NCBI GenBank assembly: GCA_038326985.1
Contig: JBBQKQ010000003.1
Coordinates: 1 to 61,016, forward strand
Reading direction: 5' to 3'
Length of the DNA stretch: 61,016 nucleotides
DNA from: Minisyncoccia bacterium
GTDB lineage: Bacteria > Patescibacteriota > Minisyncoccia > Phycocordibacterales > UBA5272
Part shown: positions 12,929 to 50,987 of the stretch, in pieces
Numbering within the stretch: position 1 is the first letter of the stretch
How the letters are laid out: the number at the start of each line of letters is the position of its first letter
The notes under the pieces: model-generated
Seen by the model: the letters and a program-made list of their open reading frames with translations, nothing else
What the model was told of the DNA's origin: nothing
Database searches by the model: none
Translations under genes and position numbers: made by a program

Positions 12929-14241
12929 AGACTCATTAATTCTTTTTCTAAATCTTCGACCTTTACCTTGACTACCTCACCAGTGTGTCTTAGTTTTATT
13001 TCCACCAGATTTTCCTCTAAGTTTTTAGTACCAATTATTATCTGCATAGGTATTCCGTAAAGGTCTGCATCATTAAGTTTTACACCTGCGGAGAGCTCAC
13101 GGTCGTCCCACAACACTTCATATTTTTTACTGTACTCTTCCCCTCCTTGATAAGGGGGGGTCAGGGGGGGTCTATTTAACATCTGATATACATTCTTTGA
13201 CACCTCATAAACTTTATCATTTTTTTCCTTGTGAAGTGAAACTATTTCAATATCAAACGGTGCAACAGCTTTTGGCCACACCAAACCTTTTTCATCACCA
13301 AATTTTTCTACTAGTACTCCCATAATTCTCGAACTTCCTATGCCATAACATCCCATGTGGGGTACAACATTTTTTTGGTTATCAACGTTAGTATATTGAA
13401 AATTAAACGATTTTGTAAACCTGTCTTCAAGCGTAAAAATATTTCCCACTTCACAAGCTTTTAGCTCTTCTAAATCCTCCACTTTAAGATTATTATTTTT
13501 TAATTCTATTTCCAAAACCTCCTTATTATAGGCAGTGCCAGAATTTTTATTTAAATAAATTATGTCTTCTCCAGCATCACAAACTACTTGAAATTCGTGT
13601 GAGAGTTTGTCAGTAAAATCTCCCCCAGAGGCCGAAGTTATAAAAGTACTTTCTCCAAGTCCTACTTCTTTAAAAAAGTTCATGTAAGCAACTTTTGCTT
13701 TTTCATAATAATCTTCAAAGTCTTCTTGTGTTAAGTGAAAAGAATAAAGATCTTTCATACGAAACTCTCGCCCTCGCAAAAGTCCCGATTTAGCACGAGG
13801 TTCGTTTCGAAATTTTGTTTGAATTTGGTAATAAGCAAATGGAAAATCTTTGTAGGATTTTCCAAACTCTAATGCTATTGGAGTTATTAATTCTTCGTGA
13901 GTTGAATTTAAAACGTACTCATTGCTAGATTTATTTTTAGAGTTTTCATTTGCAGCACTAGCTTTAAAAAGCACATCTACTTCTTCTAGTCTTCCTGTTT
14001 TCTCCCAAAGTTCTTTGGGTGCAAGCGAAGACATAGTTATTTCATTGCCTATCGTGTCCATTTGTTTTCGTATTAGGTTTTCTATTTTGTTTAAGACTTT
14101 TAGACCCATTGGTAAATAAGAGTAAACTCCCGCCATTTCTTTATAAATAAAATTGGCACGGTCTAAAAGTATAGCATTTTTGGCAACTTCGTCACTCGGT
14201 GCCTCTTTTTTTGTTTTTAAAAATAGTTTTGAATGTAACAT
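12910..14241 (-). CDS. proS: Prolyl-tRNA synthetase, short form without INS editing domain
   Basis: QIQTKFRNEPRAKSGLLRGREFRMKDLYSF, EVGNIF, MGCYGIG, anticodon-binding domain. Confidence 0.92.
   Translation of the reverse strand: MLHSKLFLKTKKEAPSDEVAKNAILLDRANFIYKEMAGVYSYLPMGLKVLNKIENLIRKQMDTIGNEITMSSLAPKELWEKTGRLEEVDVLFKASAANENSKNKSSNEYVLNSTHEELITPIALEFGKSYKDFPFAYYQIQTKFRNEPRAKSGLLRGREFRMKDLYSFHLTQEDFEDYYEKAKVAYMNFFKEVGLGESTFITSASGGDFTDKLSHEFQVVCDAGEDIIYLNKNSGTAYNKEVLEIELKNNNLKVEDLEELKACEVGNIFTLEDRFTKSFNFQYTNVDNQKNVVPHMGCYGIGSSRIMGVLVEKFGDEKGLVWPKAVAPFDIEIVSLHKEKNDKVYEVSKNVYQMLNRPPLTPPYQGGEEYSKKYEVLWDDRELSAGVKLNDADLYGIPMQIIIGTKNLEENLVEIKLRHTGEVVKVKVEDLEKELMSLWQKVF
13138..13171 (-). repeat. 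Dispersed palindromic repeat, in frame inside proS
   Basis: ACCCCCCCTGACCCCCCCTTATCAAGGAGGGGAA; 27/34 identical to 39052..39085; encodes PPLTPPYQGGE. Confidence 0.85.
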
Positions 14242-14349
14242 AAAATTTATGGTTTTCTAAACTCATTTTACTACAAATAACTAATTTTATATACTTTACG
14301 TCCCCATAAATATGTTATATAATGTGGCTCCCGTAAATAGGAGGAAGTC

Positions 14350-14580
14350 ATGATGTGCAATGATGGAAACAACCCGACTTACACCCTCGGGGATATCCGA
14401 GGCTTTACCGTAATAGCCAAGCTTGACGAGACAGTGGCGCGAGAGGTATTGGCGTTGGCGGAAGCTTACGATAAAGAAAAAGGAGCTATCCAACAGCAAG
14501 ATCTCCTGAATATCCTTGGTAACAACAAGGCTATGATGGATGACTTTCTTTTCTTTCGTGAGCTGGGGGCGCATGGCTGA
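14350..14580 (+). CDS. 76-aa hypothetical protein, GC-rich
   Basis: GGAGG SD 5-6 nt before ATG, ~50% GC by hand count of first ~110 nt, TGA stop, downstream hairpin. Confidence 0.75.
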   Translation: MMCNDGNNPTYTLGDIRGFTVIAKLDETVAREVLALAEAYDKEKGAIQQQDLLNILGNNKAMMDDFLFFRELGAHG

Positions 14581-14601
14581 AAAGCCGAAAATTGTTAAAT
14601 A

Positions 14602-14623
14602 GGTGGGGCGATTCCGCCCCACC
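14602..14623 (+). terminator. GC-rich hairpin
   Basis: GGTGGGGCG-attc-CGCCCCACC perfect 9-bp stem. Confidence 0.65.
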
Positions 14624-14673
14624 AGAAGATCAGAGTAAAAATCTGACTTTTTTATTTTAATTTTTTTTTAGAA

Positions 14674-17370
14674 TTATTTTTGCTTATCTCTCTTCAAAAC
14701 TTTTTTAAGATATCTACCAGTGTGCGAAGCTTCAATTGTCGCGACATGCTCAGGAGTTCCTTGAGCTACAATATTTCCCCCACCCACTCCACCTTCTGGT
14801 CCAATATCTATAAGCCAATCAGAAACTTTTATGATATCTAAATTATGCTCAATTAAAACTACACTATTTCCCTTATCCACAAGTTTATTTAAAATCTCAA
14901 TAAGTTTTTTTACATCTTCAAAGTGAAGACCAACAGTAGGCTCATCGAGCAAATAAATTGTTCTTTCAGTCATTGGTCTATAAAGCTCACTAGATATTTT
15001 TACACGTTGCGCCTCACCACCAGATAATGTAGTCGCACTTTGCCCAAGTTTCAAATATCCAAGGCCTACTCTATTCATAGAGTCCATTCTGTCAAAAATA
15101 CTTGGTATCTCGTAGAAAAATTTTGAAGCTTCTTCAACTGTCATTTCTAAAAGCTCATAAACATTTTTTCCTTTAAATTTTACCTCCAAAGTTTCTTTCA
15201 TAAACCTTTTTCCTTGGCAAACATCACAAAGTACGTAAACAGTTGGTAGAAAGTGCATTTCTACCGCAATTTGGCCATTTCCTTGGCACGCTTCACAGCG
15301 ACCACCTGGGACATTAAAGGAAAACCGCGATGGTGACCAGCCGCGTATTTTTGCTTCAGCGGACTCTGCGAATAATTCGCGAATTGGGGTCCAAGCACCA
15401 GTATAAGTCGCGGGGTTACTTCTTGGGGTTCTACCAATTGGACTTTGGTCAATTAATACCACTCGTGACAAATTTTCTTCTACACCACCAAAAAATTCTG
15501 CATTATAAGTTTTTGCAGTACGCATTTTACGTTCAAGTTTTGCTTCCAGATTTCTGTTTATTATTTCATACATTAAAGTAGATTTTCCACTTCCGGAAAC
15601 TCCAGTAATAGTCACCATTTTTTGTAAAGGAATTTTGGTGTTTAAATTTTGAATGTTAAATGCATTACCATTTTTAATTACCAAACTTCCGCCGTCTTTT
15701 GTTCGCCTTTCTTTAGGTACAAAAACTTTTGTTTCTTCTCGCAAGTACGAAAGTGTAATTGAGTTGCTTTTATTCGTCGGAGCCTCTAAAAGTTTATCAA
15801 GCCAATCAGCTACAATTACCTCCCCACCGTGAATTCCTGCACCAGGGCCAATATCTACCAAAAAGTCTGAAGCATAAGCTGTGTCTTCATCATGCTCAAC
15901 AACTAAAATAGTATTTCCCAGATCTCGAAGTTTTAAAAGTGTTTTTATGAGTCTGTCGTTATCACGCTGGTGAAGACCAATTGTCGGTTCGTCTAAAACA
16001 TAAAGTGCCCCAACAAGTGATGACCCAAGTTGAGAGGCTAAGCGAATTCTCTGTGCCTCACCACCTGAAAGTGTGTCGGCTTTTCTGTTTAGTGTAAGAT
16101 AATCTAAACCAACATCAAGCAAGAAATCTAAGCGAGTTAGAATTTCACGCATCACAACATAGGCAATTTCTTTTTCCTTGTCTGTTAAAACCAAATTTGC
16201 AAAGAATGATTTTGCTAAACCAATAGACAAATCTGTAGCATCGACAATATTTAGCCTCACCCCCGACCCCTCTTGCTTCGCTTCAAGTGTTCCCTTGCCT
16301 ATAGAGAGGGGAGCAGTGCTATTTAAAAATACATTTAATGCTTCTTTTCGAAGTCTCTTACCTTCACAATCATCGCATGGGTCTAGCGCTCCTAAATATT
16401 TCACACCTAATCCATTACAAGTTGGACAAGCACCATAAGGAGAGTTAAAAGAAAAAAGTCTTGGCTCTACTTCTGGAAATGAAAACCCACAGTTTGAACA
16501 AGCAAATTGCGAAGACAGCACAACACTTTCGCCATACAAAATAAATTCTACCAATCCTTTTGACTCGTGGATTGAGTGTTCAATAGCCTCACTCAAACGA
16601 GTTTTGGCATCTTTAGTTTTTTTGAGAATTTCGTCTACCCCAATAGAATCAACCAAAACAGAAATATTGTGTTTTTTATTTTTCTCCAAAACTATTTTCT
16701 CTCGCAAGTTATGCTTTTCCCCGTCAACATAAGTTTCAGTATAACCCTTTCCAAGCATGTCATAAAGCATTTGGTAGTATTCTCCTTTTCTACCGCGAAC
16801 AACTGGTGAAAGTATCTCCACCACATCGCCTGAAAATTCTACTCCTTTTACTTTTTTAGTTTCTACTTTTCCTGTTTTTTTCGCATGAGTTATTTTCTCG
16901 TAAACAATATTTATTATTTCTTCATTGGAAAGTTTCTGAATTCTGGCTCCACATTCTACACAGTGTGGCTGACCAACACGGGCATATAAAACACGTAAGT
17001 AATCGTAAATCTCAGTGATAGTTGCCACTGTTGAACGTGGGTTATTACTTCTTGTTTTTTGGTCGATAGCTATAGCTGGTGATAAACCAGTTATTTCGTC
17101 CACATCTGGTTTTTCAAGTTGGTTTAAAAATTGACGTGCGTATGGTGACAGACTTTCTACATATCTTCTTTGCCCTTCTGCAAAAATTGTGTCAAAAGCG
17201 AGAGACGACTTTCCAGATCCAGAAAGTCCAGTAAAAATAACCATCTTGTTACGTGGGATTTCCAAATCAATATTTTTCAAATTGTGTGTTCGTGCACCTT
17301 TAATAACTATTTTTTCTCCAGAAATAACAGCTTGGAATTTATTTTTATTACTTAACTCTTCTTTTTTCAT
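14674..17370 (-). CDS. uvrA: Excinuclease ABC subunit A
   Basis: [30 protein letters not shown], zinc motifs. Confidence 0.97.
16255..16313 (+). repeat. Long variant of the dispersed repeat, antisense and in frame inside uvrA
   Basis: CCTCACCCCCGACCCCTCT...AGAGGGGAG with 7-bp stem CCCCTCT/AGAGGGG; antisense peptide [20 protein letters not shown]. Confidence 0.65.
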
Positions 17371-17418
17371 ATCAATTCTAAATTATACCACACATGTCAA
17401 ACTCTTTTGACGTTCAAA

Positions 17419-17865
17419 CTAATTACCAATTACAGAATATGTCCTGTTGATATTTCCGGATCCTGGTGACAACCCATCTTGCTCTTTATAAAATTGAGGA
17501 ATCGCAATTGGTATTCCAAATGTAACCGCTATTAGACTAGCTACTGCGTAAAAAGTAAACATGAGAGTTAGAGCTATCAAACCATAAAGAATAAAACTTC
17601 TAGGTTGAGTTCCACTCCCATTTGGAGAAATTATCATTTTAACTAATTCAAAAATATACCAAGCTACTGCACCGGTAACAATAAGCCATAAAACAATATC
17701 GTTAATTATAGATTTTGCGTATTCAAAAAGTCCAAATAAGTCCTGGGTATAAGTAGTTGCCGCGTATGTAAAAAGTGGAGTGACAAGAAAAGATAAAAGT
17801 ACTCCATACAAAAAAGTTTTTAAATATATGTTTGTATTATTAACTTTTTTAACTTTTTGTTTCAT
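17419..17865 (-). CDS. VirB2/TrbC-like pilin-family membrane protein
   Basis: Signal-like N-terminus plus two TM helices; FILYGLIALTLMF. Confidence 0.55.
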   Translation of the reverse strand: MKQKVKKVNNTNIYLKTFLYGVLLSFLVTPLFTYAATTYTQDLFGLFEYAKSIINDIVLWLIVTGAVAWYIFELVKMIISPNGSGTQPRSFILYGLIALTLMFTFYAVASLIAVTFGIPIAIPQFYKEQDGLSPGSGNINRTYSVIGN

Positions 17866-17868
17866 ATT

Positions 17869-18186
17869 TTAATTATTTCTATATATGCCCCCAACTGGTG
17901 CAGAGTTTACTCCAAATATTGATCCTGTTAAACCTATGAGTGAGTATAAACTAAATATTACAGTTAAAATTATTAATCCCCACATAATTTGCCCAGGAGT
18001 AACTTTTCCTGAACCCCCGAAAACCCCACCTTTACTTTCAAACCAACCTATTTTGTTGCCCATAAATTTAATTATTAACCAAAAAAATGCTAGTACTGCA
18101 CCTCCTGTTAATACCCAAATGATACCTGCTTCAAATATATTTTTAAATGCGTATAATAGTCCAACTAATCCTTCTCCTGATGACAT
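17869..18186 (-). CDS. VirB2/TrbC-like pilin-family membrane protein
   Basis: Two TM helices; IMWGLIILTVIFSLYSLI. Confidence 0.55.
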   Translation of the reverse strand: MSSGEGLVGLLYAFKNIFEAGIIWVLTGGAVLAFFWLIIKFMGNKIGWFESKGGVFGGSGKVTPGQIMWGLIILTVIFSLYSLIGLTGSIFGVNSAPVGGIYRNN

Positions 18187-18189
18187 AAA

Positions 18190-18429
18190 TTAATGTTTAG
18201 CCTCTGGCGCCTTTTTAAACATCTTCTCAGCTCCAGATATATCACTAAACTCATCTTCTGATTTTAATAATCTTTTTTCCCTATCTTCTTTATGTGCAGA
18301 ACCAAATTCCAAATGAGTTTTTAATTGTTTTATTAAATCTTCACCAGACTCTACCAAAAATTCTTGCTTGCAAGTATTTTCTTTACCTTCTAATACAGAA
18401 AATTGTTCACAAATAAATACTTTTTTCAT
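18190..18429 (-). CDS. 79-aa hypothetical protein
   Basis: ORF with GTGTTATAAT 8 nt upstream of ATG. Confidence 0.6.
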   Translation of the reverse strand: MKKVFICEQFSVLEGKENTCKQEFLVESGEDLIKQLKTHLEFGSAHKEDREKRLLKSEDEFSDISGAEKMFKKAPEAKH

Positions 18430-18471
18430 GTAACTAAATTATAACACCATAATTCGAAAATAAGTTTTCCC

Positions 18472-18506
18472 CAAAAAAAACAACACCGATCTCACGAAAG
18501 GTGCTG
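18472..18506 (-). terminator. Intrinsic terminator
   Basis: CAGCACC...GGTGTTG stem followed by T8 on minus strand. Confidence 0.7.
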
Positions 18507-18933: not shown

Positions 18934-18951
18934 GTTCTTAGTTTAACATAT

Positions 18952-19485: not shown

Positions 19486-19490
19486 GTATT

Positions 19491-38581: not shown

Positions 38582-39040
38582 TTAAATTTTTGGAACTTTA
38601 CAGTTTTTGCAAACTCCGTATATTTCAAAAGAGAAGCCAGTCATATTTTTAAATGCCACGGCTTTTTTAAAAAGCTTGCTCGCTATTTTTTCTGCACCAA
38701 AATCTGGAAGTTCTTCTATGTGCTCACAATATTTACAAACCACGTGCGAGTGTGGGTCAGAAGCAAGCTCGTAGTGTGCATGCCCATGACAGAAATATTT
38801 TTCTAAAACTATTTCTTTTTGCACCATACTTTTTAAATTTCTGTAAACTGTCGCTTGGTCACAATAAGCTTTTTTGTTAACTTCAGAAAGAATTGCATCT
38901 ACAGAAAGTGGCTTGTCTGCAAACTCTAAAATTTCTAAAATGATGTTACGTGGGCCTGTTTTCCTAAACCCATCAGAAAAAAGCAGGTCTCGGTTTTGTT
39001 CTTTATTTTGAGCGGTCTTCTTTGCAGTTTTTTTGTCCAT
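38582..39040 (-). CDS. Fur family transcriptional regulator
   Basis: RKTGPR, ATVYRNL, HSHVVCKYC, FEIYGVCKNC. Confidence 0.92.
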   Translation of the reverse strand: MDKKTAKKTAQNKEQNRDLLFSDGFRKTGPRNIILEILEFADKPLSVDAILSEVNKKAYCDQATVYRNLKSMVQKEIVLEKYFCHGHAHYELASDPHSHVVCKYCEHIEELPDFGAEKIASKLFKKAVAFKNMTGFSFEIYGVCKNCKVPKI

Positions 39041-39051
39041 AGTATGTGCTG

Positions 39052-39085
39052 TTCCTCCCCTTTACAAGGGGAGGTTAGGTGGGGT
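39052..39085 (-). repeat. Dispersed palindromic repeat in Fur-family gene 5' UTR
   Basis: ACCCCACCTAACCTCCCCTTGTAAAGGGGAGGAA; perfect 9-bp stem CCTCCCCTT/AAGGGGAGG. Confidence 0.9.
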
Positions 39086-39091
39086 GTACAA

Positions 39092-39136
39092 ATTATACAC
39101 CCACTATTTTATTTTTACAAATGCAAGTCAATTGCA
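39092..39136 (-). promoter_or_regulatory. Promoter TTGTAA-17-TATAAT with adjacent TGCAA-N5-TTGCA palindrome
   Basis: -10 at 39092-39097, -35 at 39115-39120, palindrome at 39122-39136. Confidence 0.55.
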
Positions 39137-39143: not shown

Positions 39144-39755
39144 TTACTCACTTAAACCATCTAGGTTTACATCGTAAAGCATTGCTTCACTTACAAGTTT
39201 GTAGCTATAAACTTCCTCTGGTGTAAACCAAGTTGAAACTTCAAAGTCGTACGCCTCTGGTCCGTCTGCTGGGTCAGTGCAGTGTATAAGATTGCGGAGT
39301 CCGCGAGATCCATCTACGTCACACATGAAAAATGAGTCTAGAGCATAGTCTCCACGAATAGTTCCCGTGTCTGCAGTTGTAGGCTCTGTGCCACCAACGA
39401 GTCTTTTTACTACAGCCTGAGCCTGGTTGCCTTCGATAACCATAACAACAACTGGACAAGCCGCCATATAGTGAACCATTGCTCGGATAATGTCTTTTCC
39501 ATACTCTATTGCCTCTTTTTCTATAGGCATTCCAAGCTTACCCTTGTTTTCAATAATTCCTTTCCCCTTTCTTTCGTACCAAGCGTCGTCTTTGTTGTAA
39601 TGTTTAAAAATTAAAGTTTCGTCAGCTTGAGTCATTTTCATGGCTACAATTTTTAAACCAATTCTCTCCACTCTTTTTATTACTTCACCAACCAAACCTC
39701 TTTGGATTGTGTCTGGTTTTAAGATTACAAATGTTCTTTCTTTTTTTGGATGCAT
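39144..39755 (-). CDS. ndk: Nucleoside diphosphate kinase (long variant)
   Basis: ERTFVILKPD, GTIRGDY, RNLIHC. Confidence 0.88.
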   Translation of the reverse strand: MHPKKERTFVILKPDTIQRGLVGEVIKRVERIGLKIVAMKMTQADETLIFKHYNKDDAWYERKGKGIIENKGKLGMPIEKEAIEYGKDIIRAMVHYMAACPVVVMVIEGNQAQAVVKRLVGGTEPTTADTGTIRGDYALDSFFMCDVDGSRGLRNLIHCTDPADGPEAYDFEVSTWFTPEEVYSYKLVSEAMLYDVNLDGLSE

Positions 39756-41769: not shown

Positions 41770-42495
41770 ATGTTAGCGTTTTATATTATTGCCTTAATCC
41801 TTTGTTTTCTAGGAATAATTTTAAATCTACCTGGTTCAATTCATATTAACCCAATATTGCTGCATTAATATGACCCCAAAACTGCTTTACTAATGTCTCT
41901 GACTTTTTTAACTCTCGGTGCACTTTCAAGGATAATAATTTTTCAAAAAGAGATTATAAAAGACGACTTATTATATATTGTACTTTTTGGAATTTTAGGA
42001 GGGGCTTTAGGAGGATTTCTTGTTGGTAAAATACCTGATAAATATTTAATAATAGTTTTCTTAATTACAGGTGCAAAATATATTTATGATTTCTTTTTTA
42101 AAATCAAAAAAGAAATCAGCTTAAATACCAAAAATCATTTCTTGAGCTTATTTTTTACAGGAACAATAGCTTCTTTATTTTCTGCTTTTGGTTTACCTGG
42201 GGGTTCAATAAGACAAGGTTATTATTTTTCCAGAGGCTACACCCTACAACAAGTTCAAGGTACCGCAGCTGTTATTTTTTTTACGAGTGGACTTTTTAGT
42301 ATTTTGTCTCGCTTATACTTTGAAAATTTGGGTCTAGAAAAAATATATTTAATACTTCCTTTGTTTCTACCAATGTTACTTGTGATGTATTTTGCAAAAA
42401 AAGTTTCCTACAAAATCCCTAAAATTTGGCAAGATAGAATAATTATTTACTCATTAGTAGTTTCACTACTTTCAGTTATTCCAAAATTATTTTAA
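41770..42495 (+). pseudogene. TauE/SafE family permease with in-frame TAA at 41866-41868
   Basis: ATG 41770 is in frame with 41893 ORF: NPILLH*YDPKTA; FGLPGG...QGTAA. Confidence 0.7.
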
Positions 42496-44324
42496 TCTTC
42501 TCGTTTTTTCACATCACCATTTCTCATCATTTCTAAAAATGTATCCTGAGAAATATGAACTTTTGCAAAAGCCTGCATTTTCTTTTTTCCTTTTTTCTGT
42601 TTATCTAGAAGTTTATTTTTACGAGTCACATCTCCCCCGTATAGATATCCTGTCACATCTTTTTTCATTGCTGAAATTGACCGAGAAGAAATAATTTTTC
42701 CATCTACCTTTGCTTGAATTTTAATTGTGAATAATTCTCTAGGTAAAATAGCATGCAGCTTTTCTACCACTTCCTCTCCCTCTTTTTGCACACGGCGCGC
42801 CCCCACAACTCTTGAGAATGCTGCCACAACCTCTTCAGCAACCAAAACTTCAAGTCTTCTCACGTCTGCTTTTTGGTGACCAATCGGCTCGTATGTTACA
42901 GATGCGTACCCACTCGATACACTTTTTAGCTCGTCAAAAAAGTTTCGCATAAGCTCACGAAGTGGCATGTCAACATGCATAGCAAAACGCTCCCCCGAAA
43001 AGACATCAGTTGCTTGTAAAATACCCTCATGGTCATACAAAATTTTTGTCACCGGCGAAACATAGTCTGGTGGACAAATAATTGTTAATTTTACAATTGG
43101 CTCGAGACACTCCAAATAATTATTATGATCTGGAAAATTTGCAGGGTTGTAAATCGTCTCTACCACTCCATTTTTCTGAGTTACTAAATATGGAATTGAG
43201 GGAGTGGTGATAATTAGTTCCAAATTAAACTCACGCCGAAGTCTTTCGGTAATGATTTCCAGGTGAAGCATTCCTAAAAACCCACACCGAAAACCACGAC
43301 CTAAAATTCCCGATGCTTCTTCTTCAAAACTAAGGCTTGAGTCTGAAAGTTTTAGTTTTAAAAGTGCCAAACGCAGCTCATGAAAATAGTCTTGTTCTTC
43401 TGGGTAAATACTTGCAAATACTAGCGGCCTTGCTTCAGAGTATCCTGGTATCGGGGGTAATCTGTCTTTTGTAGAAAGTATTGTATCTCCTACTTTAGTT
43501 ATTCCTGGTTCTTTAATGCCAGTCACGATGTAACCAATTTCTCCAGCTTCAAGAAATTGTTTTTTAACTTTTTCTGGTTTAAATATTCCACACTCGCTCA
43601 CCACAAACTTTTTTTGTGGTTCATTAAAAATGAGCTCGTCTCCTACATTTATTTTTCCGTCAAACACACGTATAAAAACAATTACACCTTGGTGGTTTGA
43701 ATATCCAAAGTCAAATATTAGTGCTCGACTACCTTTACGCTCAGTTTCTCCTCCTTCATAAGCAGGGGTTAAGGGGGGTTTTGGTCCTGGCACTTTGCTA
43801 AATATTTCTGTTAAAAGTTTTTCTACACCTTCTCCAGTTTTACCTGATACATAGTTAATATCAGATTTCTCACACCCAAGAAGTTCTATTAATTCTTGTT
43901 CAACTTTTGGTAAGTCCGATAGCGGTGAGTCAATTTTAGATATCACAGGTAAAATTGTTAGACCTGCGTCTTTTGCCATTTGTAGCACTGTAATAGTTTG
44001 CGCTTGTACACCCTGGGTTGCGTCTACTAACATTAGAGCACCTTCTACCGCACGGAGACTTCTGGAGACTTCATAAGAAAAATCAATATGTCCTGGAGTG
44101 TCAATAAGGTTAAAAATAACCTGCTCGCCATTAATAGGAAACTCCATTCTTACTGGTTGCATTTTAATTGTGATTCCCCTTTCACGTTCGAGATCCATCG
44201 AGTCTAAAACTTGGTCTTGCATGTGTCTTTTTTCGATAGTTTTAGTCACTTCCAAAAAGCGGTCTGACAAAGTAGACTTTCCGTGGTCGATGTGAGCAAT
44301 GATAGAAAAATTTCGGATTTGCAT
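42492..44324 (-). CDS. lepA: Elongation factor 4
   Basis: IRNFSIIAHIDHGKST, LIDTPGH, RCGFLGMLH, KDVTGYLYGGDVTRKNKLL. Confidence 0.98.
   Translation of the reverse strand: MQIRNFSIIAHIDHGKSTLSDRFLEVTKTIEKRHMQDQVLDSMDLERERGITIKMQPVRMEFPINGEQVIFNLIDTPGHIDFSYEVSRSLRAVEGALMLVDATQGVQAQTITVLQMAKDAGLTILPVISKIDSPLSDLPKVEQELIELLGCEKSDINYVSGKTGEGVEKLLTEIFSKVPGPKPPLTPAYEGGETERKGSRALIFDFGYSNHQGVIVFIRVFDGKINVGDELIFNEPQKKFVVSECGIFKPEKVKKQFLEAGEIGYIVTGIKEPGITKVGDTILSTKDRLPPIPGYSEARPLVFASIYPEEQDYFHELRLALLKLKLSDSSLSFEEEASGILGRGFRCGFLGMLHLEIITERLRREFNLELIITTPSIPYLVTQKNGVVETIYNPANFPDHNNYLECLEPIVKLTIICPPDYVSPVTKILYDHEGILQATDVFSGERFAMHVDMPLRELMRNFFDELKSVSSGYASVTYEPIGHQKADVRRLEVLVAEEVVAAFSRVVGARRVQKEGEEVVEKLHAILPRELFTIKIQAKVDGKIISSRSISAMKKDVTGYLYGGDVTRKNKLLDKQKKGKKKMQAFAKVHISQDTFLEMMRNGDVKKRED
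43746..43779 (-). repeat. Dispersed palindromic repeat, in frame inside lepA
   Basis: ACCCCCCTTAACCCCTGCTTATGAAGGAGGAGAA; 28/34 identical to proS copy; encodes PPLTPAYEGGE. Confidence 0.82.
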
Positions 44325-46360: not shown

Positions 46361-47324
46361 ATGGTTTACTACTTTCCAAAACTTTTATTACAGTTCCTCT
46401 AAAATATTTTTTACCTATTAAGTCATACTCAATATCATTTGTGGAATCTCGCAGATTATTTATTAAAAGTTTAGCATTGTCTATAACAAAAGTACATTCA
46501 CCAATAAGATTAACTTTACTTCTATCAACCCCAAACATAAAATCATTTGCATAGGCACGATTTGTAGCCAATATTTTATAACCCTCATAGTCTCCGGTAA
46601 AAACTTGTTTACCTGTTAAATATATTCCTCGTGGATGAGTATCGTAAGTATATTTATTGTATCCAAAGCGGACATTTATAACGGTGTTCATTCCATTGGT
46701 AAAAGTGGGTTTTGCTTTTACTGGAACCACAGGAACCACAGGAACCACTGGAACCACAGGAACCACAGCTGGAACTTGCTCAGGTTTATTATCACAAATG
46801 TTGGTTTCTGAATTATAAATTTGTAAATCTGTACAAGTAGGTTTTTCTGGCTCAGGCTCATTTTGATAAACCACAATTGGTTTTACAACAGGTGGAATTA
46901 TTGGCTCATTAGCCCCATTATTTGTTATGGCATGAGGAGTAACAGTGGGTTGGAAGTTTAAAAAGAAATAAACGAAGCCCAAAGAAAAAATAATTGCACC
47001 AAGAGTTAAAAACAGTGGTAGGAGAAATGGTTTTATTTTGTGTACAAAACTTTCACCTTGGTAATTTACAGCTTTGGAAGAATCATCTAATAATTTTTCC
47101 GATTTGATTTTCGGATCAGCAATTTTATCAATTTCTTGGTGGGTACCTTTTTCTTCTTTTTCTAGCCGGACAATTCTATTTTCGATTTCTTTTAAAATCT
47201 CATCTCCTCCTGCGAAGTTTTCTAACTCGCTCAAATCTAAATCTTTAGAGACAATTTCTGGTGAAATATTTTTTTCGATATTTCCACTTAAATTAGGGGT
47301 GTCTGCATTTGACATATTATGCAA
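46317..47324 (-). CDS. Single-TM hypothetical protein with Pro/Val-rich linker
   Basis: Acidic N-terminus, TM, VPV repeats, C-terminal globular domain. Confidence 0.65.
   Translation of the reverse strand: MHNMSNADTPNLSGNIEKNISPEIVSKDLDLSELENFAGGDEILKEIENRIVRLEKEEKGTHQEIDKIADPKIKSEKLLDDSSKAVNYQGESFVHKIKPFLLPLFLTLGAIIFSLGFVYFFLNFQPTVTPHAITNNGANEPIIPPVVKPIVVYQNEPEPEKPTCTDLQIYNSETNICDNKPEQVPAVVPVVPVVPVVPVVPVKAKPTFTNGMNTVINVRFGYNKYTYDTHPRGIYLTGKQVFTGDYEGYKILATNRAYANDFMFGVDRSKVNLIGECTFVIDNAKLLINNLRDSTNDIEYDLIGKKYFRGTVIKVLESSKPYVQCKPGENAGENF
46723..46767. repeat. 9-bp tandem repeat x5 encoding (VVP)n
   Basis: ggaaccaca x2, ggaaccact, ggaaccaca x2. Confidence 0.9.
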
Positions 47325-47404
47325 ATAAGTATAACATAAAAATTTTTTTCAAAGTCAAAATAAATTCAAAATACACAACCTATCGGGTTGTGTATAATGA
47401 TATT

Positions 47405-47688
47405 ACATGCTCATAAGCCGAATTCTGTTTTTCAAAAAGTTATTTATCTGGGATAATTATTACTAACCACCTCAAGCGGCACTTCTTCTTTCGAAGACAC
47501 GGCCTTGCACGCGGGTAAACATTTAGCCGTTTCATTTGAATTTAATCAACTCGTTTCTGTTCGCAGATCTTAGATCACTCTAGATGGGCGTTACCCACTA
47601 CCTTTTTACAAATATTGCTATTTGTTCGTGTTCGGACTTTCCTCTAAAATTTTTCTTTCGAAATATTTTAGCAACTTTTTCGACATGT
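47405..47688 (-). ncRNA. rnpB: RNase P RNA (~284 nt)
   Basis: GAGGAAAGTCCG, GGGTAACGCCC, ACAGAAACG, TGAAACGG, GTGCAAG, AACAGAATTCGGCTTA; TGTTATAAT promoter at ~47696. Confidence 0.93.
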
Positions 47689-47752
47689 GTAAATATTATA
47701 ACATTTTTTAAAAAGTTATGTTAGACTAATTTTTAAGAAAAATAATTTTATT

Positions 47753-48193
47753 ATGCAAGAAGAAATACAGAAAATAAAACTCCAAATTCAAGACCTAGAA
47801 GAAGGGCTAACAAAAGGAAAATCCAAGCCAAAAATTCTGTTAATTCACGAGGCGACAATTAAAGTTATAGATATTGAAAAAAACTTGCAAGCGCAAAAAG
47901 AAACCTTAGAGTACATGATGCCAGACTTTGTCCTGCTAAAAGGAAAACTAGCAAATTTAAAATCTACAATAGAATTGGGAAGTATCGAAAAGGCAAAAAC
48001 TTTAACAAGCGCTACCACTTCCTGCGCTGTACTTTTTCTTCCCCAGATTTTAATAACTACTTTTTTTAGTATGGCTACAAATTTCCCAAACGACATTGCA
48101 AAATCAGAATTTGGCCTTGTATATATTATGAGTATAATGTTTTTAGTTTCAATACTTTGTCTTTTATTTTTACATTTTAAAAAATATATATAA
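47753..48193 (+). CDS. Hypothetical protein, coiled coil plus 2 C-terminal TMs
   Basis: 146-aa ORF. Confidence 0.55.
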   Translation: MQEEIQKIKLQIQDLEEGLTKGKSKPKILLIHEATIKVIDIEKNLQAQKETLEYMMPDFVLLKGKLANLKSTIELGSIEKAKTLTSATTSCAVLFLPQILITTFFSMATNFPNDIAKSEFGLVYIMSIMFLVSILCLLFLHFKKYI

Positions 48194-48237
48194 TTAGCAG
48201 TTTAAATGTGGTATTTCTTTTGTGATATAATCATATT

Positions 48238-49446
48238 ATGAAATTATTTAACTCACGCACAAGAAAAATAGAAGAGTTTGAAAGTCTTACCCTTGGCGAA
48301 ATAAAAATGTATTCTTGTGGACCTACAGTTTATGACTATGCACACATCGGGAATTTACGTGCCTTTATTTTTGCTGATATTTTAAGAAAAAGTTTAGAGT
48401 TACAAAACTATAAAGTAACACAAGTAATGAATATCACAGATTTTGGACATCTTGTAGGTGATGGAGATAATGGGGAGGACAAAATGAGTGAAGGACTTAA
48501 AAGAGAAAATTTACCACGAAGTTTAGAGGGAATGAAAACTCTTGCAGATAAATATACAACTTCATTTTTAGATGACATTAATAAACTAAATATTAAGAAA
48601 GCTGATTTTTACCCGAGGGCGAGTGAGAATATCTCGGAATACATAAAAATAATTTCAGGACTTAGTGAAAAAGGTTTTACATATAAAATTAGTGATGGAA
48701 TATATTTTAATACTTCTAAAGACCCTCACTATGGATACATGTCTCTTTTAGACAAGCACAATAAAAGTGAAAGTAGGATTGGAGAGAATTCTGAAAAAAT
48801 AAACCAGGCAGACTTTGCACTTTGGAAATTTGCAGATAGCACTGATACTGGTTTTGACTCACCATTTGGGTTTGGTTTTCCTGGTTGGCATATTGAGTGT
48901 TCGGGAATGGCATTAAAGTTTTTAGGTGAACAGATAGATATTCACACTGGAGGTGTGGACCATATTAATGTTCATCATACAAATGAAATCGCGCAAACAG
49001 AAAATTTTACAGGTAAAACTTTTTCAACTTTTTTTTGTCATAATGAATTTTTAGATATTAATGATATTAAAATGTCTAAATCAAAAAATAATTTTTTTAC
49101 TCTACGTAATATTGAGGAGAAAAATATTTCCCCTTTAGCTTTTCGCTATCTAACACTCACTGCAAACTACAGACAAAAATTGAATTTTACTTGGGAAAAT
49201 TTACAAGCTAGTGCAACGGCATTAACAAAACTGCATATTAAAGTAAAAGCTTTTAAAGAGCAGAATTTAGAGCCAAAAATAAATGAAGATTACAAAAGTA
49301 AATTTTTAGAAAAAATAAATAACGATCTCAATACTGCTCAAGCTTTGGCACTAATATGGACATTACTTAAAGACAAAGTGGTATCTGATGGGGAGAAATT
49401 GGGGACAATTCTCTATTTTGATAATGTTTTTAGTTTGGGACTTTAG
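48238..49446 (+). CDS. cysS: Cysteinyl-tRNA synthetase, C-terminally short
   Basis: YSCGPTVY, HIGN, WHIECS, HHTNE, KMSKS, NDLNT. Confidence 0.93.
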   Translation: MKLFNSRTRKIEEFESLTLGEIKMYSCGPTVYDYAHIGNLRAFIFADILRKSLELQNYKVTQVMNITDFGHLVGDGDNGEDKMSEGLKRENLPRSLEGMKTLADKYTTSFLDDINKLNIKKADFYPRASENISEYIKIISGLSEKGFTYKISDGIYFNTSKDPHYGYMSLLDKHNKSESRIGENSEKINQADFALWKFADSTDTGFDSPFGFGFPGWHIECSGMALKFLGEQIDIHTGGVDHINVHHTNEIAQTENFTGKTFSTFFCHNEFLDINDIKMSKSKNNFFTLRNIEEKNISPLAFRYLTLTANYRQKLNFTWENLQASATALTKLHIKVKAFKEQNLEPKINEDYKSKFLEKINNDLNTAQALALIWTLLKDKVVSDGEKLGTILYFDNVFSLGL

Positions 49447-49461
49447 TGTATAATTTATAAG

Positions 49462-49495
49462 ACCTCACCTAGCCTCTCCGGATTTCGGAGAGGGA
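49462..49495 (+). repeat. Dispersed palindromic repeat in dnaB 5' region
   Basis: ACCTCACCTAGCCTCTCCGGATTTCGGAGAGGGA; stem CCTCTCCG/CGGAGAGG. Confidence 0.82.
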
Positions 49496-49497
49496 TA

Positions 49498-50925
49498 GTG
49501 CAAAAAAACAAAAAATATATGGACCCAATAAAAGGACGAATTCCTCCACAAAACTTAGATGCTGAAATGTACCTTATAGCTGCAATTCTTATACGCCCTG
49601 AGGCTTTACACGACATTATGGGCTATTTTCGGGAAGAGTACTTTTATGCTGAAAAACATAAAATAATTTATAAACACATTTTAGAGCTTTTAAATAAAAA
49701 TGATCCTATTGACCTTGTAACTTTGGCCTCTAAAATGCGTGACTCAAAAAGCCTTGACCCAATAGGTGGAGTAGAATATCTTTCGGAAATTGCTGGAAGT
49801 GTGGGAACTTCTGCTTCTGCGGACTTTTTTGCAAAAGAAATATATAAAAAAGCAATTCTTCGTGACGTGATTCGTGCGTCGAACCATATTGGTGAGCTTG
49901 GGTATAAAGAAGATGAAGATTTAGATACCGTGCTTGAGCTTGCAGAAAAACAAATTTTTGACATCACTCAAAAAACAGGAAACCGGGATAATAGCTTTGT
50001 GGAAATAAAAAATACCCTTGAAGATGCTTGGAAAAGAATTGAGCAGATGCACGAAAAAAGTGGAAACTTAAGAGGTGTACCAACAGGTTTTAAAGATTTA
50101 GATAATCTCCTTTCTGGCTGGCAAAAGTCTGACCTGATAATCCTTGCCGCGAGACCTTCCGTGGGTAAAACTTCTCTCGCACTCGACTTTATAAGAAACG
50201 CAGCCATTGGAAGCAAAACACCTGTGGCCTTTTTTACTCTCGAAATGAGTAAAGAACAGCTAGTAGATAGACTTGTATCCGCGGAAAGTAAAGTAAACTC
50301 TTGGAAGCTGCGTACTGGTGCAAAACTTTATGACAATGAATGGGAAATGATACAACAATCTTTAAACAGACTCCGTGAAGCACCAATATACATTCATGAC
50401 GAGTCGGCAATATCACCAATAAAAATGCGAAGTATTTTACGTAAAATGACTTCCCGTTCTTCCTCACCAATTGGACTTGTAGTTGTGGACTATTTGCAAC
50501 TCATGAGCTCGCACAAAAACTATGATAGTATGGTTAATCAAGTGACAGAAATATCTCGAAGTTTAAAAGGAATAGCTAAAGAGTTCAATGTGCCTGTGAT
50601 TGCCCTATCTCAGCTCTCCCGTGCAGTTGAAACTCGTGGTGGTAAGCCCAAACTTTCTGACCTTCGTGACTCAGGAAGTATCGAGCAAGATGCCGATGTT
50701 GTGATGTTTATTCACCGCGACGATTATCAAAAGTCAGCTGCAGATAGAGAGAATACTGGTCCCGCAGAAGCAGAAATATTAATCGAAAAACATAGAAACG
50801 GTCCGACAGGATATGTAAAACTGCACTTCGATAAAGAGCGAACATCATTTAGCTCAATCGATAAACATTTTGGTGATTTTGCAAATGTACCGGAGGCAAA
50901 TATTTCAAATATAGAAGAATTTTAA
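49498..50925 (+). CDS. dnaB: Replicative DNA helicase (likely start ATG 49519)
   Basis: PPQNLDAE, AARPSVGKT, VVDYLQL, ALSQLSR, LRDSGSIEQDAD. Confidence 0.97.
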   Translation: MQKNKKYMDPIKGRIPPQNLDAEMYLIAAILIRPEALHDIMGYFREEYFYAEKHKIIYKHILELLNKNDPIDLVTLASKMRDSKSLDPIGGVEYLSEIAGSVGTSASADFFAKEIYKKAILRDVIRASNHIGELGYKEDEDLDTVLELAEKQIFDITQKTGNRDNSFVEIKNTLEDAWKRIEQMHEKSGNLRGVPTGFKDLDNLLSGWQKSDLIILAARPSVGKTSLALDFIRNAAIGSKTPVAFFTLEMSKEQLVDRLVSAESKVNSWKLRTGAKLYDNEWEMIQQSLNRLREAPIYIHDESAISPIKMRSILRKMTSRSSSPIGLVVVDYLQLMSSHKNYDSMVNQVTEISRSLKGIAKEFNVPVIALSQLSRAVETRGGKPKLSDLRDSGSIEQDADVVMFIHRDDYQKSAADRENTGPAEAEILIEKHRNGPTGYVKLHFDKERTSFSSIDKHFGDFANVPEANISNIEEF

Positions 50926-50953
50926 GGGTACACTTATGCAAAGCTAAGTCTAA

Positions 50954-50987
50954 TTCCTCCTATTATTTAAGGGAGGTTAGGTGGGGT
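50954..50987 (-). repeat. Dispersed palindromic repeat between dnaB and recR
   Basis: ACCCCACCTAACCTCCCTTAAATAATAGGAGGAA; first 17 nt identical to 39052..39085 copy. Confidence 0.88.

What the first reader, a model, noticed from the sequence alone, without database searches (positions are those of the whole stretch)
13138..50987. Dispersed ~34-nt palindromic repeat family that inserts in frame into housekeeping proteins and into 5' UTRs
Seen: six related copies at 13138, 16255, 39052, 43746, 49462 and 50954, with approximate consensus ACCCCACCTAACCTCCCCTT-nnn-AAGGGGAGGAA (C-rich leader plus hairpin). They are conspicuous GC islands in an AT-rich sequence. Three are intergenic. Three are translated inside proS, lepA and uvrA as extra Pro/Gly-rich segments without breaking the frame. 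Established analogues: Rickettsia palindromic elements and cyanobacterial small dispersed repeats insert in frame into genes. Inference: a non-autonomous mobile mini-element spreading in a streamlined CPR-like genome and creating new protein loops. About 1 copy per 10 kb here, so many genome-wide. No mobilising enzyme is linked to a copy; candidates elsewhere would be a RAYT/HUH transposase, DUF559/Vsr-like or GIY-YIG nuclease.
Basis: partly seen in the sequence, partly recalled or inferred. Interest (0 to 1): 0.85.

Follow-up and report, generated by a model that had tools for sequence, protein, structure and literature searches.

The report
Triplex-type mini-repeats inside bacterial genes
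A roughly 45-base G+C-rich repeat, built like the little-understood triple-helix-forming 'BoxC/PIT/TM' repeats of E. coli, has multiplied to about 50 copies in this tiny candidate-phyla-radiation genome, and most copies sit in frame inside essential genes, where they are read as extra protein loops.

Summary
The window holds five short copies and one long-loop variant, against 0.06 expected by chance. The 701-kb genome holds about 50.

- **In-frame inserts:** the proS (15 aa), lepA (about 10 aa) and uvrA (about 17-21 aa) copies are absent from solved homologues and from sister genomes.
- **Leader copies:** the fur and dnaB copies lie between a conserved TGTATAAT box and the start codon. Sister genomes lack them.
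- **Structure:** the "C-rich leader" is the third block of an intrastrand triplex motif. Across 106 copies from three genomes and at least 9 block subfamilies, 93% of base triads obey the purine-motif code on the G-rich strand. This far exceeds permuted and slid controls.
- **Family:** the architecture, including the TTA second loop, matches E. coli BoxC/PIT/TMECO, but not its literal consensus.
- **Differences from E. coli:** 62% of copies lie inside ORFs, and the C-rich strand is the sense strand in 62 of 75 in-ORF copies.
- **Other tests:** no target duplication was found. The GGAGG arm is not a ribosome-binding site, because the 16S rRNA lacks the anti-SD. A RAYT-like Y1 gene exists but is neither flanked by copies nor correlated with the repeats across 31 genomes.

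Verdict: a new variant of a known repeat class; how it spreads is unknown.

The parts
13131..13177 (-). Copy in proS (ORF 12910-14241, minus strand), sense orientation, all-C subfamily (ACCCCCCCT GA CCCCCCCTT atc AAGGAGGGG). It is read as ..N-RPPLTPPYQGGEEY-S.. and makes a 45-nt (15-codon) insertion.
   Evidence: There is a 15-residue gap in the PDB ProRS alignment. The site is cleanly empty in G002, G001 and G003. The insert is unique among 16 aligned homologues. AlphaFold2 gives pLDDT below 50 at residues 361-371, between confident elements.
16255..16322 (+). Long-loop variant in uvrA (ORF 14674-17370, minus strand), antisense orientation: CCTCACCCCC GA CCCCTCT [31-nt loop] AGAGGGG AGCAGTGC. 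It is read as ..[23 protein letters not shown].., about 17-21 extra residues.
   Evidence: The PDB UvrA alignment breaks at residues 331-381. G002, G001 and G003 have a much shorter segment there. The 7-bp stem appears in the fold. The inner module recurs in C10, C7 and C2.
39045..39091 (-). Reference copy in the 5' leader of a Fur-family regulator gene (38582-39040, minus strand), downstream of ndk. It starts 6 nt after the extended -10 box TGTATAAT (39092-39099) and ends 5 nt before the ATG.
   Evidence: In G002 the same TGTATAAT box and ATG are conserved, but the leader is 28 nt shorter and has no element. The hairpin folds at -9.7 kcal/mol, z = -2.9.
43746..43786 (-). Decayed copy in lepA (ORF 42492-44324, minus strand), sense orientation, read as K-PPLTPAYEGGET. 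It lies in the variable linker after the G domain (VPxPK).
   Evidence: It is a 9-residue insertion against T. thermophilus EF4. It is absent in G002 (94% identical protein) and G003. An intact copy of the same subfamily is present in G004, and a remnant in G001 (62 locus L086). The hairpin is degraded.
49456..49502 (+). Copy in the 5' leader of dnaB (ATG at 49519), after cysS, T subfamily (ACCTCACCT AG CCTCTCCGG att TCGGAGAGG). It starts 7 nt after TGTATAAT (49447-49454).
   Evidence: It is absent at the orthologous junction in G002, G001, G004 and G003; G002 keeps a TATAAT box 12 nt before the ATG. The hairpin folds at -9.4 kcal/mol, z = -3.1.
50947..50993 (-). Decayed copy in the dnaB-recR spacer, antisense to both genes (G-rich strand on the plus strand). 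It shares a 14-nt 5' extension (AGTATATCATRTAAG) with copy C10:20124.
   Evidence: The spacer is 67 nt shorter and lacks the element in G002, and is also short in G001. The hairpin is weak.

Best explanation
The six features are copies of one genus-specific family of short interspersed repeats. The family belongs to the G/C-rich intrastrand-triplex class known in E. coli as BoxC, PIT elements or TMECO.

**Anatomy.** The unit is about 45 nt on the C-rich strand:
- a head ending in ..AG;
- a 9-nt block L;
- a linker T-A-R;
- a 9-nt block S;
- a 3-4-nt loop;
- a purine block P complementary to S;
- a tail yAGTGC.

S and P form a hairpin. On the complementary G-rich strand the complement of L is a mirror image of P. 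It can therefore lie in the hairpin's major groove as a purine-motif third strand, forming G.G-C, A.A-T and T.A-T triads.

**Shown:**
- The family multiplied and turned over within this genus: about 52, 39 and 46 copies in three genomes, and 6 each in two others. There are gains (proS, uvrA, the fur leader, the dnaB leader) and at least one loss (lepA in G002).
- At least 9 subfamilies keep the triad code through compensated three-way changes.
- Individual inserted copies decay.
- In a genome that is 91% coding, copies persist in three settings: in frame and stop-free in variable loops or linkers of proteins, in 5' leaders between the -10 box and the start codon, and in short spacers.
- The C-rich strand is the sense strand about 5 times out of 6.

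**Inferred:**
- The triplex-capable fold of single-stranded DNA is what the copying process needs. That is why master copies keep it while resident copies lose it. The host does not need it.
- Spread leaves no target duplication. It uses host replication or repair, or an unlinked enzyme.
- The sense bias arises because G-rich purine tracts on the non-template strand or in the mRNA are harmful, so such copies are purged.

On this reading the element is selfish or neutral DNA. The new Pro/Gly-rich protein loops are a by-product.
For: - **Copy number and enrichment:**
- **Insertions proven against PDB homologues and sister genomes:**
- **Triad code in the own genome:** 335 of 368 triads are canonical, against 305 +/- 3.8 when L blocks are permuted among copies.
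- **Triad code across three genomes:** in 106 copies, 789 of 848 triads are canonical. Among 64 distinct haplotypes the count is 454 of 512, against 388.9 +/- 6.1 permuted (0 of 10000 reach it). Registers slid by 1-2 nt give only 46-56%.
- **Which strand:** opposite A-T pairs, L carries A 96 times and T 27 times. Both fit the purine motif on the G strand; only T would fit a pyrimidine motif on the C strand.
- **Match to E. coli:** same block lengths, same loop sizes and the same TTA second loop as TMECO type A (Table 1 and pattern in PMC4666352).
- **ORF occupancy:** 31 of 50 copies lie in ORFs, against 91.5% coding (p = 1e-8).
- **Sense bias in ORFs:** 25:6 (own), 23:6 (G004) and 14:1 (G001), pooled 62:13, p = 8e-9. 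Stop codons do not explain it: the unit is open in 37% of sense frames and 38% of antisense frames.
- **Sense bias between genes:** intergenic copies flanked by co-oriented genes show 12:3.
- **Transcription versus replication:** three copies in or before genes that oppose the local skew and gene majority follow the gene, not the skew.
- **Decay:** the older lepA copy and the dnaB-recR copy are degraded. The few copies in G002 and G003 score low.
- **No target duplication:**
Against: - Triplex formation is inferred from sequence covariation only. No energy model or experiment was available, and subfamily relatedness inflates the copy counts (partly handled by counting distinct haplotypes).
- The copying mechanism is unknown.
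- Junctions compared at about 78% nucleotide identity are not clean. At lepA, uvrA and the fur leader the element appears to replace a few host bases.
- The sense bias could equally reflect an insertion mechanism tied to transcription or replication. Gene orientation and GC skew are strongly confounded.
- A Y1/RAYT-like gene is present in exactly the three copy-rich genomes of the genus. This keeps an enzyme-driven model alive.
Confidence: 0.72

Rival explanations
1. This is a REP-like element mobilised in trans by a RAYT/HUH (Y1) transposase. The enzyme would recognise the folded single strand (hairpin plus a guide-like block L and the conserved CTAR tetranucleotide at its foot), cut it, and paste it into single-stranded DNA at the replication fork. 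That would give a strand bias and no target duplication.
For: - A 228-aa Y1-family protein with HUH (NHFHL) and YIHLNP motifs is encoded at C15:5859-6545 of this genome.
- Homologues occur in G001 (2 copies) and G004 (2 copies), the two other copy-rich genomes. None was found in copy-poor G002 and G003.
- NCBIfam's best hit is 'REP-associated tyrosine transposase'.
- There is no target-site duplication, as expected for HUH enzymes.
- The elements are strand-asymmetric.
- Inverted doublets occur in G004 and G001 (coordinates).
Against: - No copy lies within about 3 kb of the two Y1 genes fetched from G001 and G004 (covariance model with filters off), and none adjoins the own gene. RAYTs are typically flanked by their REPs.
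- Homologues occur in 9 of 26 genomes of other genera that have no such repeats. G016, which has its own triplex-motif family, has none. Fisher p = 0.27 over 31 genomes and 0.10 within the genus.
- The RAYT score is 30.6 bits against a cut-off of 80.
- G002 and G003 are only 69% and 77% complete.
- E. coli TMECO copies were not found linked to mobile elements (PMC4666352).
Confidence: 0.18
2. This is an RNA-level functional element. The C-rich strand is what is transcribed, and the hairpin (with or without a pyrimidine-motif RNA triple helix) acts in the mRNA. It could be a 5'-terminal stabiliser or a translational regulator that sequesters the GGAGG arm.
For: - There is a strong sense bias, 62:13.
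- The fur and dnaB copies begin 6-7 nt after an extended -10 box, so they would form the very 5' end of the transcript and end just before the ATG.
- Many copies elsewhere end 1-20 nt before a start codon.
Against: - The 16S rRNA 3' end has no CCUCC anti-SD, and only 7 of 650 genes have GGAGG upstream. The purine arm therefore cannot act as a ribosome-binding site.
- Sister genomes express the same genes (fur, dnaB) from the same promoter box without the element.
- Most copies are inside ORFs.
- L carries A opposite A-U pairs in 96 of 133 cases, which does not fit an RNA pyrimidine-motif triplex.
- Copies decay.
- There is no Rfam match.
Confidence: 0.08
3. The host benefits from the repeats. 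They would be kept as generators of local genetic instability or of new surface loops, following the 'adaptive instability' idea of Holder et al.
For: - TM loci are more rearranged among E. coli strains than control sites (PMC4666352).
- Here the same variable linker of lepA and the same loops differ between sister genomes.
Against: - There is no conservation of any given copy across the genus apart from lepA.
- Copies are depleted from ORFs relative to coding density.
- Copies decay after insertion.
- Sister genomes with few copies (G002, G003) show that a high copy number is not required.
Confidence: 0.05

Closest known systems
BoxC / PIT elements / TMECO intrastrand triplex motifs of E. coli and other bacteria (Bachellier et al. 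1990s; Hoyne, Maher et al. 2000; Holder et al. 2015, PMC4666352)
   Same: - Three consecutive blocks: a 9-nt C-rich block, a 3-6-nt loop, the complementary 9-nt G-rich block, a 3-nt loop (TTA, as in TMECO type A) and a mirror-image G-rich block.
- Purine-motif triad code with T or A opposite A-T pairs.
- Tens of near-identical dispersed copies.
- Patchy distribution between close relatives.
- Occasional inverted doublets.
- No linked transposase and no known function.
   Different: - The block sequences differ (CCTCCCCTT and others, not CCCTCNCCC), so the literal TMECO pattern is not matched.
- In E. coli all copies are intergenic with no strand bias. Here 62% are inside ORFs and read in frame, and 5 of 6 have the C-rich strand as the sense strand.
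- The host is a 33% G+C, roughly 0.7-1 Mb Paceibacteria-type genome.
- At least 9 compensated subfamilies occur within one genus.
Rickettsia palindromic elements (RPE; Ogata et al. 2000) - from my own knowledge
   Same: A short palindromic repeat that has invaded many protein-coding genes in frame in a reduced genome. It adds surface segments without destroying the proteins.
   Different: RPEs are about 100-150 bp, A+T-rich like their host, and show no triplex-type mirror block. There is no sequence similarity, and no sense-strand rule of this strength is known to me.
REP / REPIN sequences with RAYT (TnpA-REP) transposases - from my own knowledge
   Same: A 20-40-nt G+C-rich imperfect palindrome with a conserved tetranucleotide at its foot. 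It is strand-asymmetric, makes no target duplication and has many copies. A Y1-family gene is present in this genome.
   Different: REPs are extragenic, lack the mirror third block and typically flank their RAYT gene. Here no copy flanks the Y1 genes, and the gene does not co-vary with the repeats across 31 genomes.
Translational bypass elements ('byps') of Magnusiomyces mitochondria (Lang et al. 2014) - from my own knowledge
   Same: G+C-rich palindromic mini-insertions scattered through protein genes of an A+T-rich genome.
   Different: Byps break the reading frame and are skipped by the ribosome. Here every genic copy keeps the frame and is stop-free, so ordinary translation suffices.

Membership tests
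G/C-rich intrastrand triplex motif repeats (BoxC/PIT/TM class, Holder et al. 2015) | Three consecutive blocks: a roughly 9-nt pyrimidine block, a 3-6-nt loop, the complementary purine block, a 3-nt loop and a mirror-repeat purine-rich block | tested here: met
   46 own copies and 60 copies from relatives parse as L(9)-K(2)-S(9)-loop(2-5)-P(9). The second loop is T-A-R, which reads TTA or CTA on the G strand.
G/C-rich intrastrand triplex motif repeats (BoxC/PIT/TM class, Holder et al. 2015) | Third block obeys the purine-motif triad code (G.G-C, A.A-T, T.A-T) with at most about one mismatch | tested here: met
   789 of 848 triads are canonical. Distinct haplotypes give 454 of 512 against 388.9 +/- 6.1 permuted. 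Slid registers give 46-56%.
G/C-rich intrastrand triplex motif repeats (BoxC/PIT/TM class, Holder et al. 2015) | Over-represented, dispersed, highly similar copies | tested here: met
   5 copies against 0.06 expected in the window. About 50 in the genome. 44 pattern matches against 1 for the reversed control pattern.
TMECO sensu stricto (E. coli consensus) | Matches 5'-CCCTCNCCC N3-6 GGGNGAGGG N3 GGGNGAGGG-3' | tested here: not met
   The blocks here are CCTCCCCTT, CCTCTCCTT, CCCCCCCTT, CCCCTCCTT, CCCCTCTTT and others. The pattern is quoted from PMC4666352.
TMECO sensu stricto (E. coli consensus) | Always intergenic, no strand bias | tested here: not met
   31 of 50 copies lie in ORFs. Sense to antisense is 62:13 in three genomes.
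G/C-rich intrastrand triplex motif repeats (BoxC/PIT/TM class, Holder et al. 2015) | The isolated strand folds into a triplex in vitro (CD, NMR) or in vivo (DMS footprint) | not testable with these tools
   ViennaRNA predicts only the hairpin (-9.6 kcal/mol). No triplex energy model was available.
REP/REPIN-RAYT system | A RAYT (Y1 HUH transposase) gene in the genome | tested here: inconclusive
   The Pfam Y1_Tnp search of the own genome was negative. However, tblastn finds a 228-aa Y1-like ORF at C15:5859-6545. Its NCBIfam REP_Tyr_transpos score is 30.6 bits against a cut-off of 80.
REP/REPIN-RAYT system | The RAYT gene is flanked by copies of its repeat | tested here: not met
   There is no covariance-model match (filters off, E up to 10) within about 3 kb of the Y1 genes in G001:C37 and G004:C17. 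No copy lies near C15:5859-6545; the nearest is 5 kb away.
REP/REPIN-RAYT system | The gene and the repeats co-occur across genomes | tested here: inconclusive
   Within the genus, 3 of 3 copy-rich genomes have the gene and 0 of 2 copy-poor ones do (p = 0.10; those assemblies are incomplete). Across 31 genomes the table is [[3,1],[9,18]], p = 0.27.
MITE (non-autonomous DDE-transposon derivative) | Terminal inverted repeats and a target-site duplication | tested here: not met
   The longest shared word between 5' and 3' flanks matches the null: mean 4.82 against 4.65, with no fixed offset. Comparisons of empty and filled sites show no duplication.
Rickettsia palindromic elements (RPE) | A 100-150-bp palindromic unit inserted in frame in genes | tested here: not met
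   In-frame insertion is met. The unit, however, is 45 nt and has a different architecture. RPE sequences were not compared directly.
Translational bypass elements | The insert breaks the frame or carries stops and must be skipped | tested here: not met
   All genic copies lie in uninterrupted ORFs, with homology to the same frame on both sides.

The most novel reading that the evidence does not exclude
The mirror block is conserved because the propagating intermediate is a triplex-folded single strand of DNA. On this reading the genus provides the first natural covariation proof that an intramolecular purine-motif triplex is a selected structure in vivo: at least 9 compensated subfamilies. 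The family would then be a self-copying DNA whose insertion is structure-driven and oriented by transcription. It might be processed by the unlinked Y1/HUH protein acting on a triplex-type rather than a hairpin-type substrate. Dozens of insertions in conserved genes can be dated, so the still unknown mechanism by which BoxC/PIT/TM repeats spread could be reconstructed here.
Probability: 0.15. Interest if true: 0.85.

Novelty: new variant of a known kind. Interest (0 to 1): 0.6.

Why it matters
BoxC/PIT/TM repeats have been known for about 30 years and occur in hundreds of bacterial genomes. Neither their function nor their mode of spread is understood, and whether intramolecular triplexes matter in vivo is still debated.

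- **Constraint on the structure:** many subfamilies here carry three-way compensated changes. That is sequence-level evidence that the triplex-capable architecture itself is under constraint.
- **Datable gains and losses:** copies are embedded in alignable essential genes (proS, lepA, uvrA and dozens more), so gains, losses and decay can be followed.
- **A strand rule absent in E. coli:** the C-rich strand is the sense strand.
- **Effect on the proteome:** in a genome with almost no non-coding DNA, such repeats remodel proteins by adding Pro/Gly-rich loops to housekeeping enzymes.
- **Practical value:** recognising the family prevents annotating these segments as genuine protein motifs or as Shine-Dalgarno sites.

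Tried and rejected
1. **SD/anti-SD sequestering hairpin.** Rejected. The 16S rRNA 3' end found on C16 lacks CCUCC, and GGAGG precedes only 7 of 650 ORFs.
2. **Known RNA family.** There is no Rfam match at gathering thresholds apart from three tRNAs.
3. **Watson-Crick pairing of the leader with the purine arm (alternative hairpin).** The covarying positions fit only a parallel (mirror) register, not an antiparallel one. Slid-register controls support this.
4. **Pyrimidine-motif triplex on the C-rich strand or in RNA.** Disfavoured, because L carries A opposite A-T pairs in 96 of 133 cases.
5. **Stop-codon filtering as the cause of the sense bias.** Rejected. Open frames are equally frequent on both strands, 37% against 38%.
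6. **Target-site duplications.** None found.
7. **Y1/RAYT linkage.** Examined and left as a weak lead. The Pfam search of the own genome was a false negative, later corrected by tblastn.
8. **Near-identical strains with empty sites.** The closest ProS in 5.8 billion proteins is only 71% identical.
10. **First fuzzy-regex genome scan.** It timed out and was replaced by a vectorised scan.

Full report

The repeat finder groups 13138, 39052, 43746 and 50954 into one 34-nt family.

On the C-rich strand the consensus is (T)ATAAG-ACCCCACCT-AR-CCTCCCCTT-nnn(n)-AAGGGGAGG-AAyAGTGC. A degenerate 20-nt pattern with up to 3 mismatches hits five of the six copies, against 0.06 +/- 0.24 in dinucleotide shuffles.

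The window is contig C3 of a 701-kb, 33% G+C assembly of 26 contigs. A Hamming scan, nhmmer and a covariance model each recover about 50 copies genome-wide, or 1 per 13.5 kb.

The sixth copy (16255) is a variant. It has a 7-bp stem CCCCTCT/AGAGGGG, a 31-nt loop, the family's tail AGCAGTGC and a correctly mirrored leader. The inner loop module recurs in about four other copies.

The lepA and dnaB-recR copies are decayed.

**2. Are the genic copies real in-frame insertions?**

Yes, in all three genes.

- **ProS.** It carries RPPLTPPYQGGEEY in place of a 15-residue gap against solved ProRS structures.
  - At the DNA level a clean 45-nt block is missing in three same-genus genomes.
  - None of 15 aligned homologues, out of 120 listed and at most 71% identical, has it.
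  - An AlphaFold2 model puts it in a low-confidence loop (pLDDT below 50 at residues 361-371) between a confident helix and strand.
- **LepA.** It has PPLTPAYEG inserted in the variable linker after the G domain, relative to T. thermophilus EF4.
  - The 94%-identical G002 protein and G003 lack it.
  - G004 has an intact copy of the same subfamily at the same place, and G001 has a remnant.
  - This is therefore an older insertion that has decayed here and was deleted in G002.
- **UvrA.** It has about 17-21 extra residues, encoded by the antisense long-loop copy, where G002, G001 and G003 have a short segment.

**3. What about the intergenic copies?**

Pfam identifies the neighbouring genes as ndk, a Fur-family regulator, cysS, dnaB and recR.

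- **39045 copy.** It starts 6 nt after an extended -10 box TGTATAAT and ends 5 nt before the fur ATG. G002 conserves the box and the ATG, but its leader is 28 nt shorter and has no element.
- **49456 copy.** It sits in the same way between TGTATAAT and the dnaB ATG, and is absent in all four congeners.
- **50947 copy.** It lies antisense in the dnaB-recR spacer, which is 67 nt shorter in G002.

So 'insertion into 5' UTRs' is supported for two copies.

The GGAGG arm is not a ribosome-binding site. The 16S rRNA 3' end on C16 lacks the CCUCC anti-SD, and only 7 of 650 ORFs have GGAGG upstream.

**4. What is the element?**

The 'C-rich leader' (L) covaries with the hairpin in a mirror register, not an antiparallel one.

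When the stem pair at a given position changes from G-C to A-T, the mirror position of L changes from C to T or A. I noted this before consulting earlier notes.

Read on the G-rich strand, this is the purine-motif triplex code: G.G-C, A.A-T and T.A-T.

- **Own genome:** 335 of 368 triads are canonical, against 305 +/- 3.8 when L blocks are permuted among copies.
- **Relatives:** I fetched 60 more copies from G001 and G004. They include at least 9 block subfamilies in which the A-T pairs sit at different stem positions. Examples are AAGGGGAGG, AAGGAGAGG, AAGGGGGGG, AAGGGGGAG, AAGGAGGGG, AAAGAGGGG and AAGAGGGGG. In each, L follows in mirror image.
- **All 106 copies:** 789 of 848 triads are canonical.
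- **64 distinct haplotypes:** 454 of 512, against 388.9 +/- 6.1 permuted (0 of 10000 reach it).
- **Slid registers:** shifting by 1-2 nt gives 46-56%.
- **Choice of strand:** L carries A (96 times) more often than T (27 times) opposite A-T pairs. This fits the purine motif on the G strand but not a pyrimidine motif on the C strand or in RNA.

The architecture is that of the E. coli BoxC/PIT/TMECO repeat. This covers block lengths, loop lengths and the TTA second loop. The E. coli repeat is 5'-CCCTCNCCC N3-6 GGGNGAGGG N3 GGGNGAGGG, shown by CD and NMR to form a triplex, always intergenic, without strand bias and of unknown function (Holder et al. 2015, PMC4666352).

The block sequences here differ. 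This is therefore a member of the class, not of TMECO in the strict sense.

**5. Distribution and dynamics.**

The covariance model finds the following numbers of copies:

| Genome | Relation | Copies |
|---|---|---|
| own | - | 52 |
| G001 | same genus | 39 |
| G004 | same genus | 46 |
| G002 | same genus | 6 |
| G003 | same genus | 6 |
| 26 others | other genera of the same family/order | 23 with none, 3 with 1-2 weak hits |

A sequence-independent pattern (TARC-Y8-N2-6-R8-G) confirms this. It also reveals an unrelated triplex-type family in one genome of another genus, G016, with 15 matches. Backwards-pattern controls give 0-2.

Of the window's six sites, five are filled only in this genome. 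One, lepA, is shared with more distant congeners and empty in the sister genome. The family therefore both gains and loses copies.

Copies in G002 and G003 score low.

**6. Where copies survive.**

The genome is 91.5% coding by a crude ORF call. Only 31 of 50 copies are inside ORFs (p = 1e-8), so genic insertions are selected against or avoided.

Those that remain are stop-free. Most are read as TPP(N/S)LPLx(K/R)GG in frame a, or as PPLTPPYxGGEE / PHL(T/A)SPYKGEE in frame b.

The C-rich strand is the sense strand as follows:

| Genome | Sense : antisense (in ORFs) |
|---|---|
| own | 25:6 |
| G004 | 23:6 |
| G001 | 14:1 |
| pooled | 62:13 (p = 8e-9) |

Stop codons do not explain this, since open frames are 37% on the sense strand and 38% on the antisense strand.

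Peptide tolerance alone does not explain it either. Intergenic copies between co-oriented genes show 12:3.

Gene orientation and GC skew are confounded. However, the three copies associated with genes that oppose the local skew all follow the gene. This favours a transcription-linked cause. I infer purging of copies that put the G-rich, triplex- or G4-prone strand on the non-template side, but this is not shown.

**7. How does it spread?**

This is unknown.

There are no terminal inverted repeats beyond the hairpin and no target-site duplication. Flank word-sharing equals the null, and no consistent offset appears.

- A Pfam search of this genome was negative.
- Y1 hits in G001 and G004 led, through tblastn, to a 228-aa Y1-like ORF at C15:5859-6545 with HUH and YIHLNP motifs.
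- It scores 30.6 bits on NCBIfam's RAYT model, against a cut-off of 80.
- Within the genus the gene is present in the three copy-rich genomes and was not found in the two copy-poor, incomplete ones.
- No repeat flanks the two Y1 loci fetched from G001 and G004, and none adjoins the own-genome gene.
- Homologues occur in 9 genomes without such repeats, and G016 has repeats but no homologue. Fisher p = 0.27.

I keep this as a weak rival, with about 0.18 probability.

**8. Best explanation.**

The repeats are selfish or neutral structure-defined DNA of the BoxC/PIT/TM class.

The triplex-capable fold is conserved among subfamilies, so it appears to be needed for propagation. It is lost in resident copies, so the host does not appear to need it.

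The new protein loops and longer leaders are by-products, tolerated in variable regions.

**9. Limits.**

- Triplex formation is inferred from covariation only.
- Subfamily relatedness inflates counts.
- Junctions were compared at about 78% nucleotide identity and are not base-exact.
- ORF calls are crude.
- The assemblies are incomplete (69-90%).

**10. Relation to earlier notes of this scan.**

Earlier notes report the same family and the same BoxC/PIT/TM assignment for other contigs of this genome.

I reached the triplex reading independently. I took the family name from those notes and verified it against the paper and against 106 copies.

Noticed in passing
own genome C16 (16S rRNA 3' end); all contigs: The 16S rRNA ends ...AAGTCGTAACAAGGCACGGGTAGCGGAAGCTGTTCGTGAATTT with no CCUCC anti-Shine-Dalgarno. 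Only about 1% of ORFs have GGAGG upstream. The lineage appears to be SD-independent.
   Followed up: partly
own genome C15:5859-6545 (minus strand): A 228-aa Y1/HUH (RAYT-like) ORF. The Pfam-based whole-genome search missed it and tblastn found it. Its homologues are patchy across the order: 12 of 31 genomes, often in 2-4 copies.
   Followed up: partly
window 16272-16300; own genome C10:9238-9263, C7:16503-16528, C10:22569-22594, C2:22619-22644: A second repeated module of about 26 nt (GTCTyTGCCCTGAGTGTwCCCTCGyC and a TGCTTCGCTTCAAGTGTwCCCTTGCC variant). It occurs inside the loop or stem of some triplex-motif copies. It could be a nested insertion or an ancestral long form.
   Followed up: partly
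G016 (another genus of the same family), e.g. C3:5114-5136, C15:4590-4614, C59:5470-5493: G016 has its own triplex-motif-like family (TAACCCCTCCCT-CA-AGGGGAGGG, TAACCCCTTCCCC-AA-GGGAAGGGG), with about 10 loci. Its congener G011 has essentially none. G016 LepA also carries an unrelated 31-aa insertion at the same linker as the lepA copy here.
   Followed up: no
window 14602-14636: A G+C-rich hairpin GGTGGGGCG-ATTC-CGCCCCACC lies just downstream of uvrA on the minus strand and is followed by TATTT. It looks like an intrinsic terminator and is not a family member.
   Followed up: no
window 3460-3975 and 4019-4534 (minus strand): Two adjacent 171-aa ORFs are tandem paralogues, with DNA repeats of 241 and 213 nt at 71-86% identity.
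   Followed up: no
window 39144-39755 (minus strand): The ndk ORF is 203 aa, about 50-60 aa longer than usual. The Pfam NDK match is split into two stretches, so it has an N-terminal extension or insertion that is not made of this repeat.
   Followed up: no
window about 47330-47750: Gene orientation switches from minus to plus (divergent transcription), and the local GC skew changes from about -0.16 to about +0.02 across this point. This may be a replication origin or terminus, or a rearrangement boundary.
   Followed up: no
window 50988-51019 and own genome C10:20165-20180: The two intergenic copies that lie antisense to both flanking genes share a 14-nt 5' extension (AGTATATCATRTAAG). On the genes' strand this reads CTTAYATGATATACT and contains -10-like hexamers just upstream of recR. 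The element may carry an outward-facing promoter.
   Followed up: no
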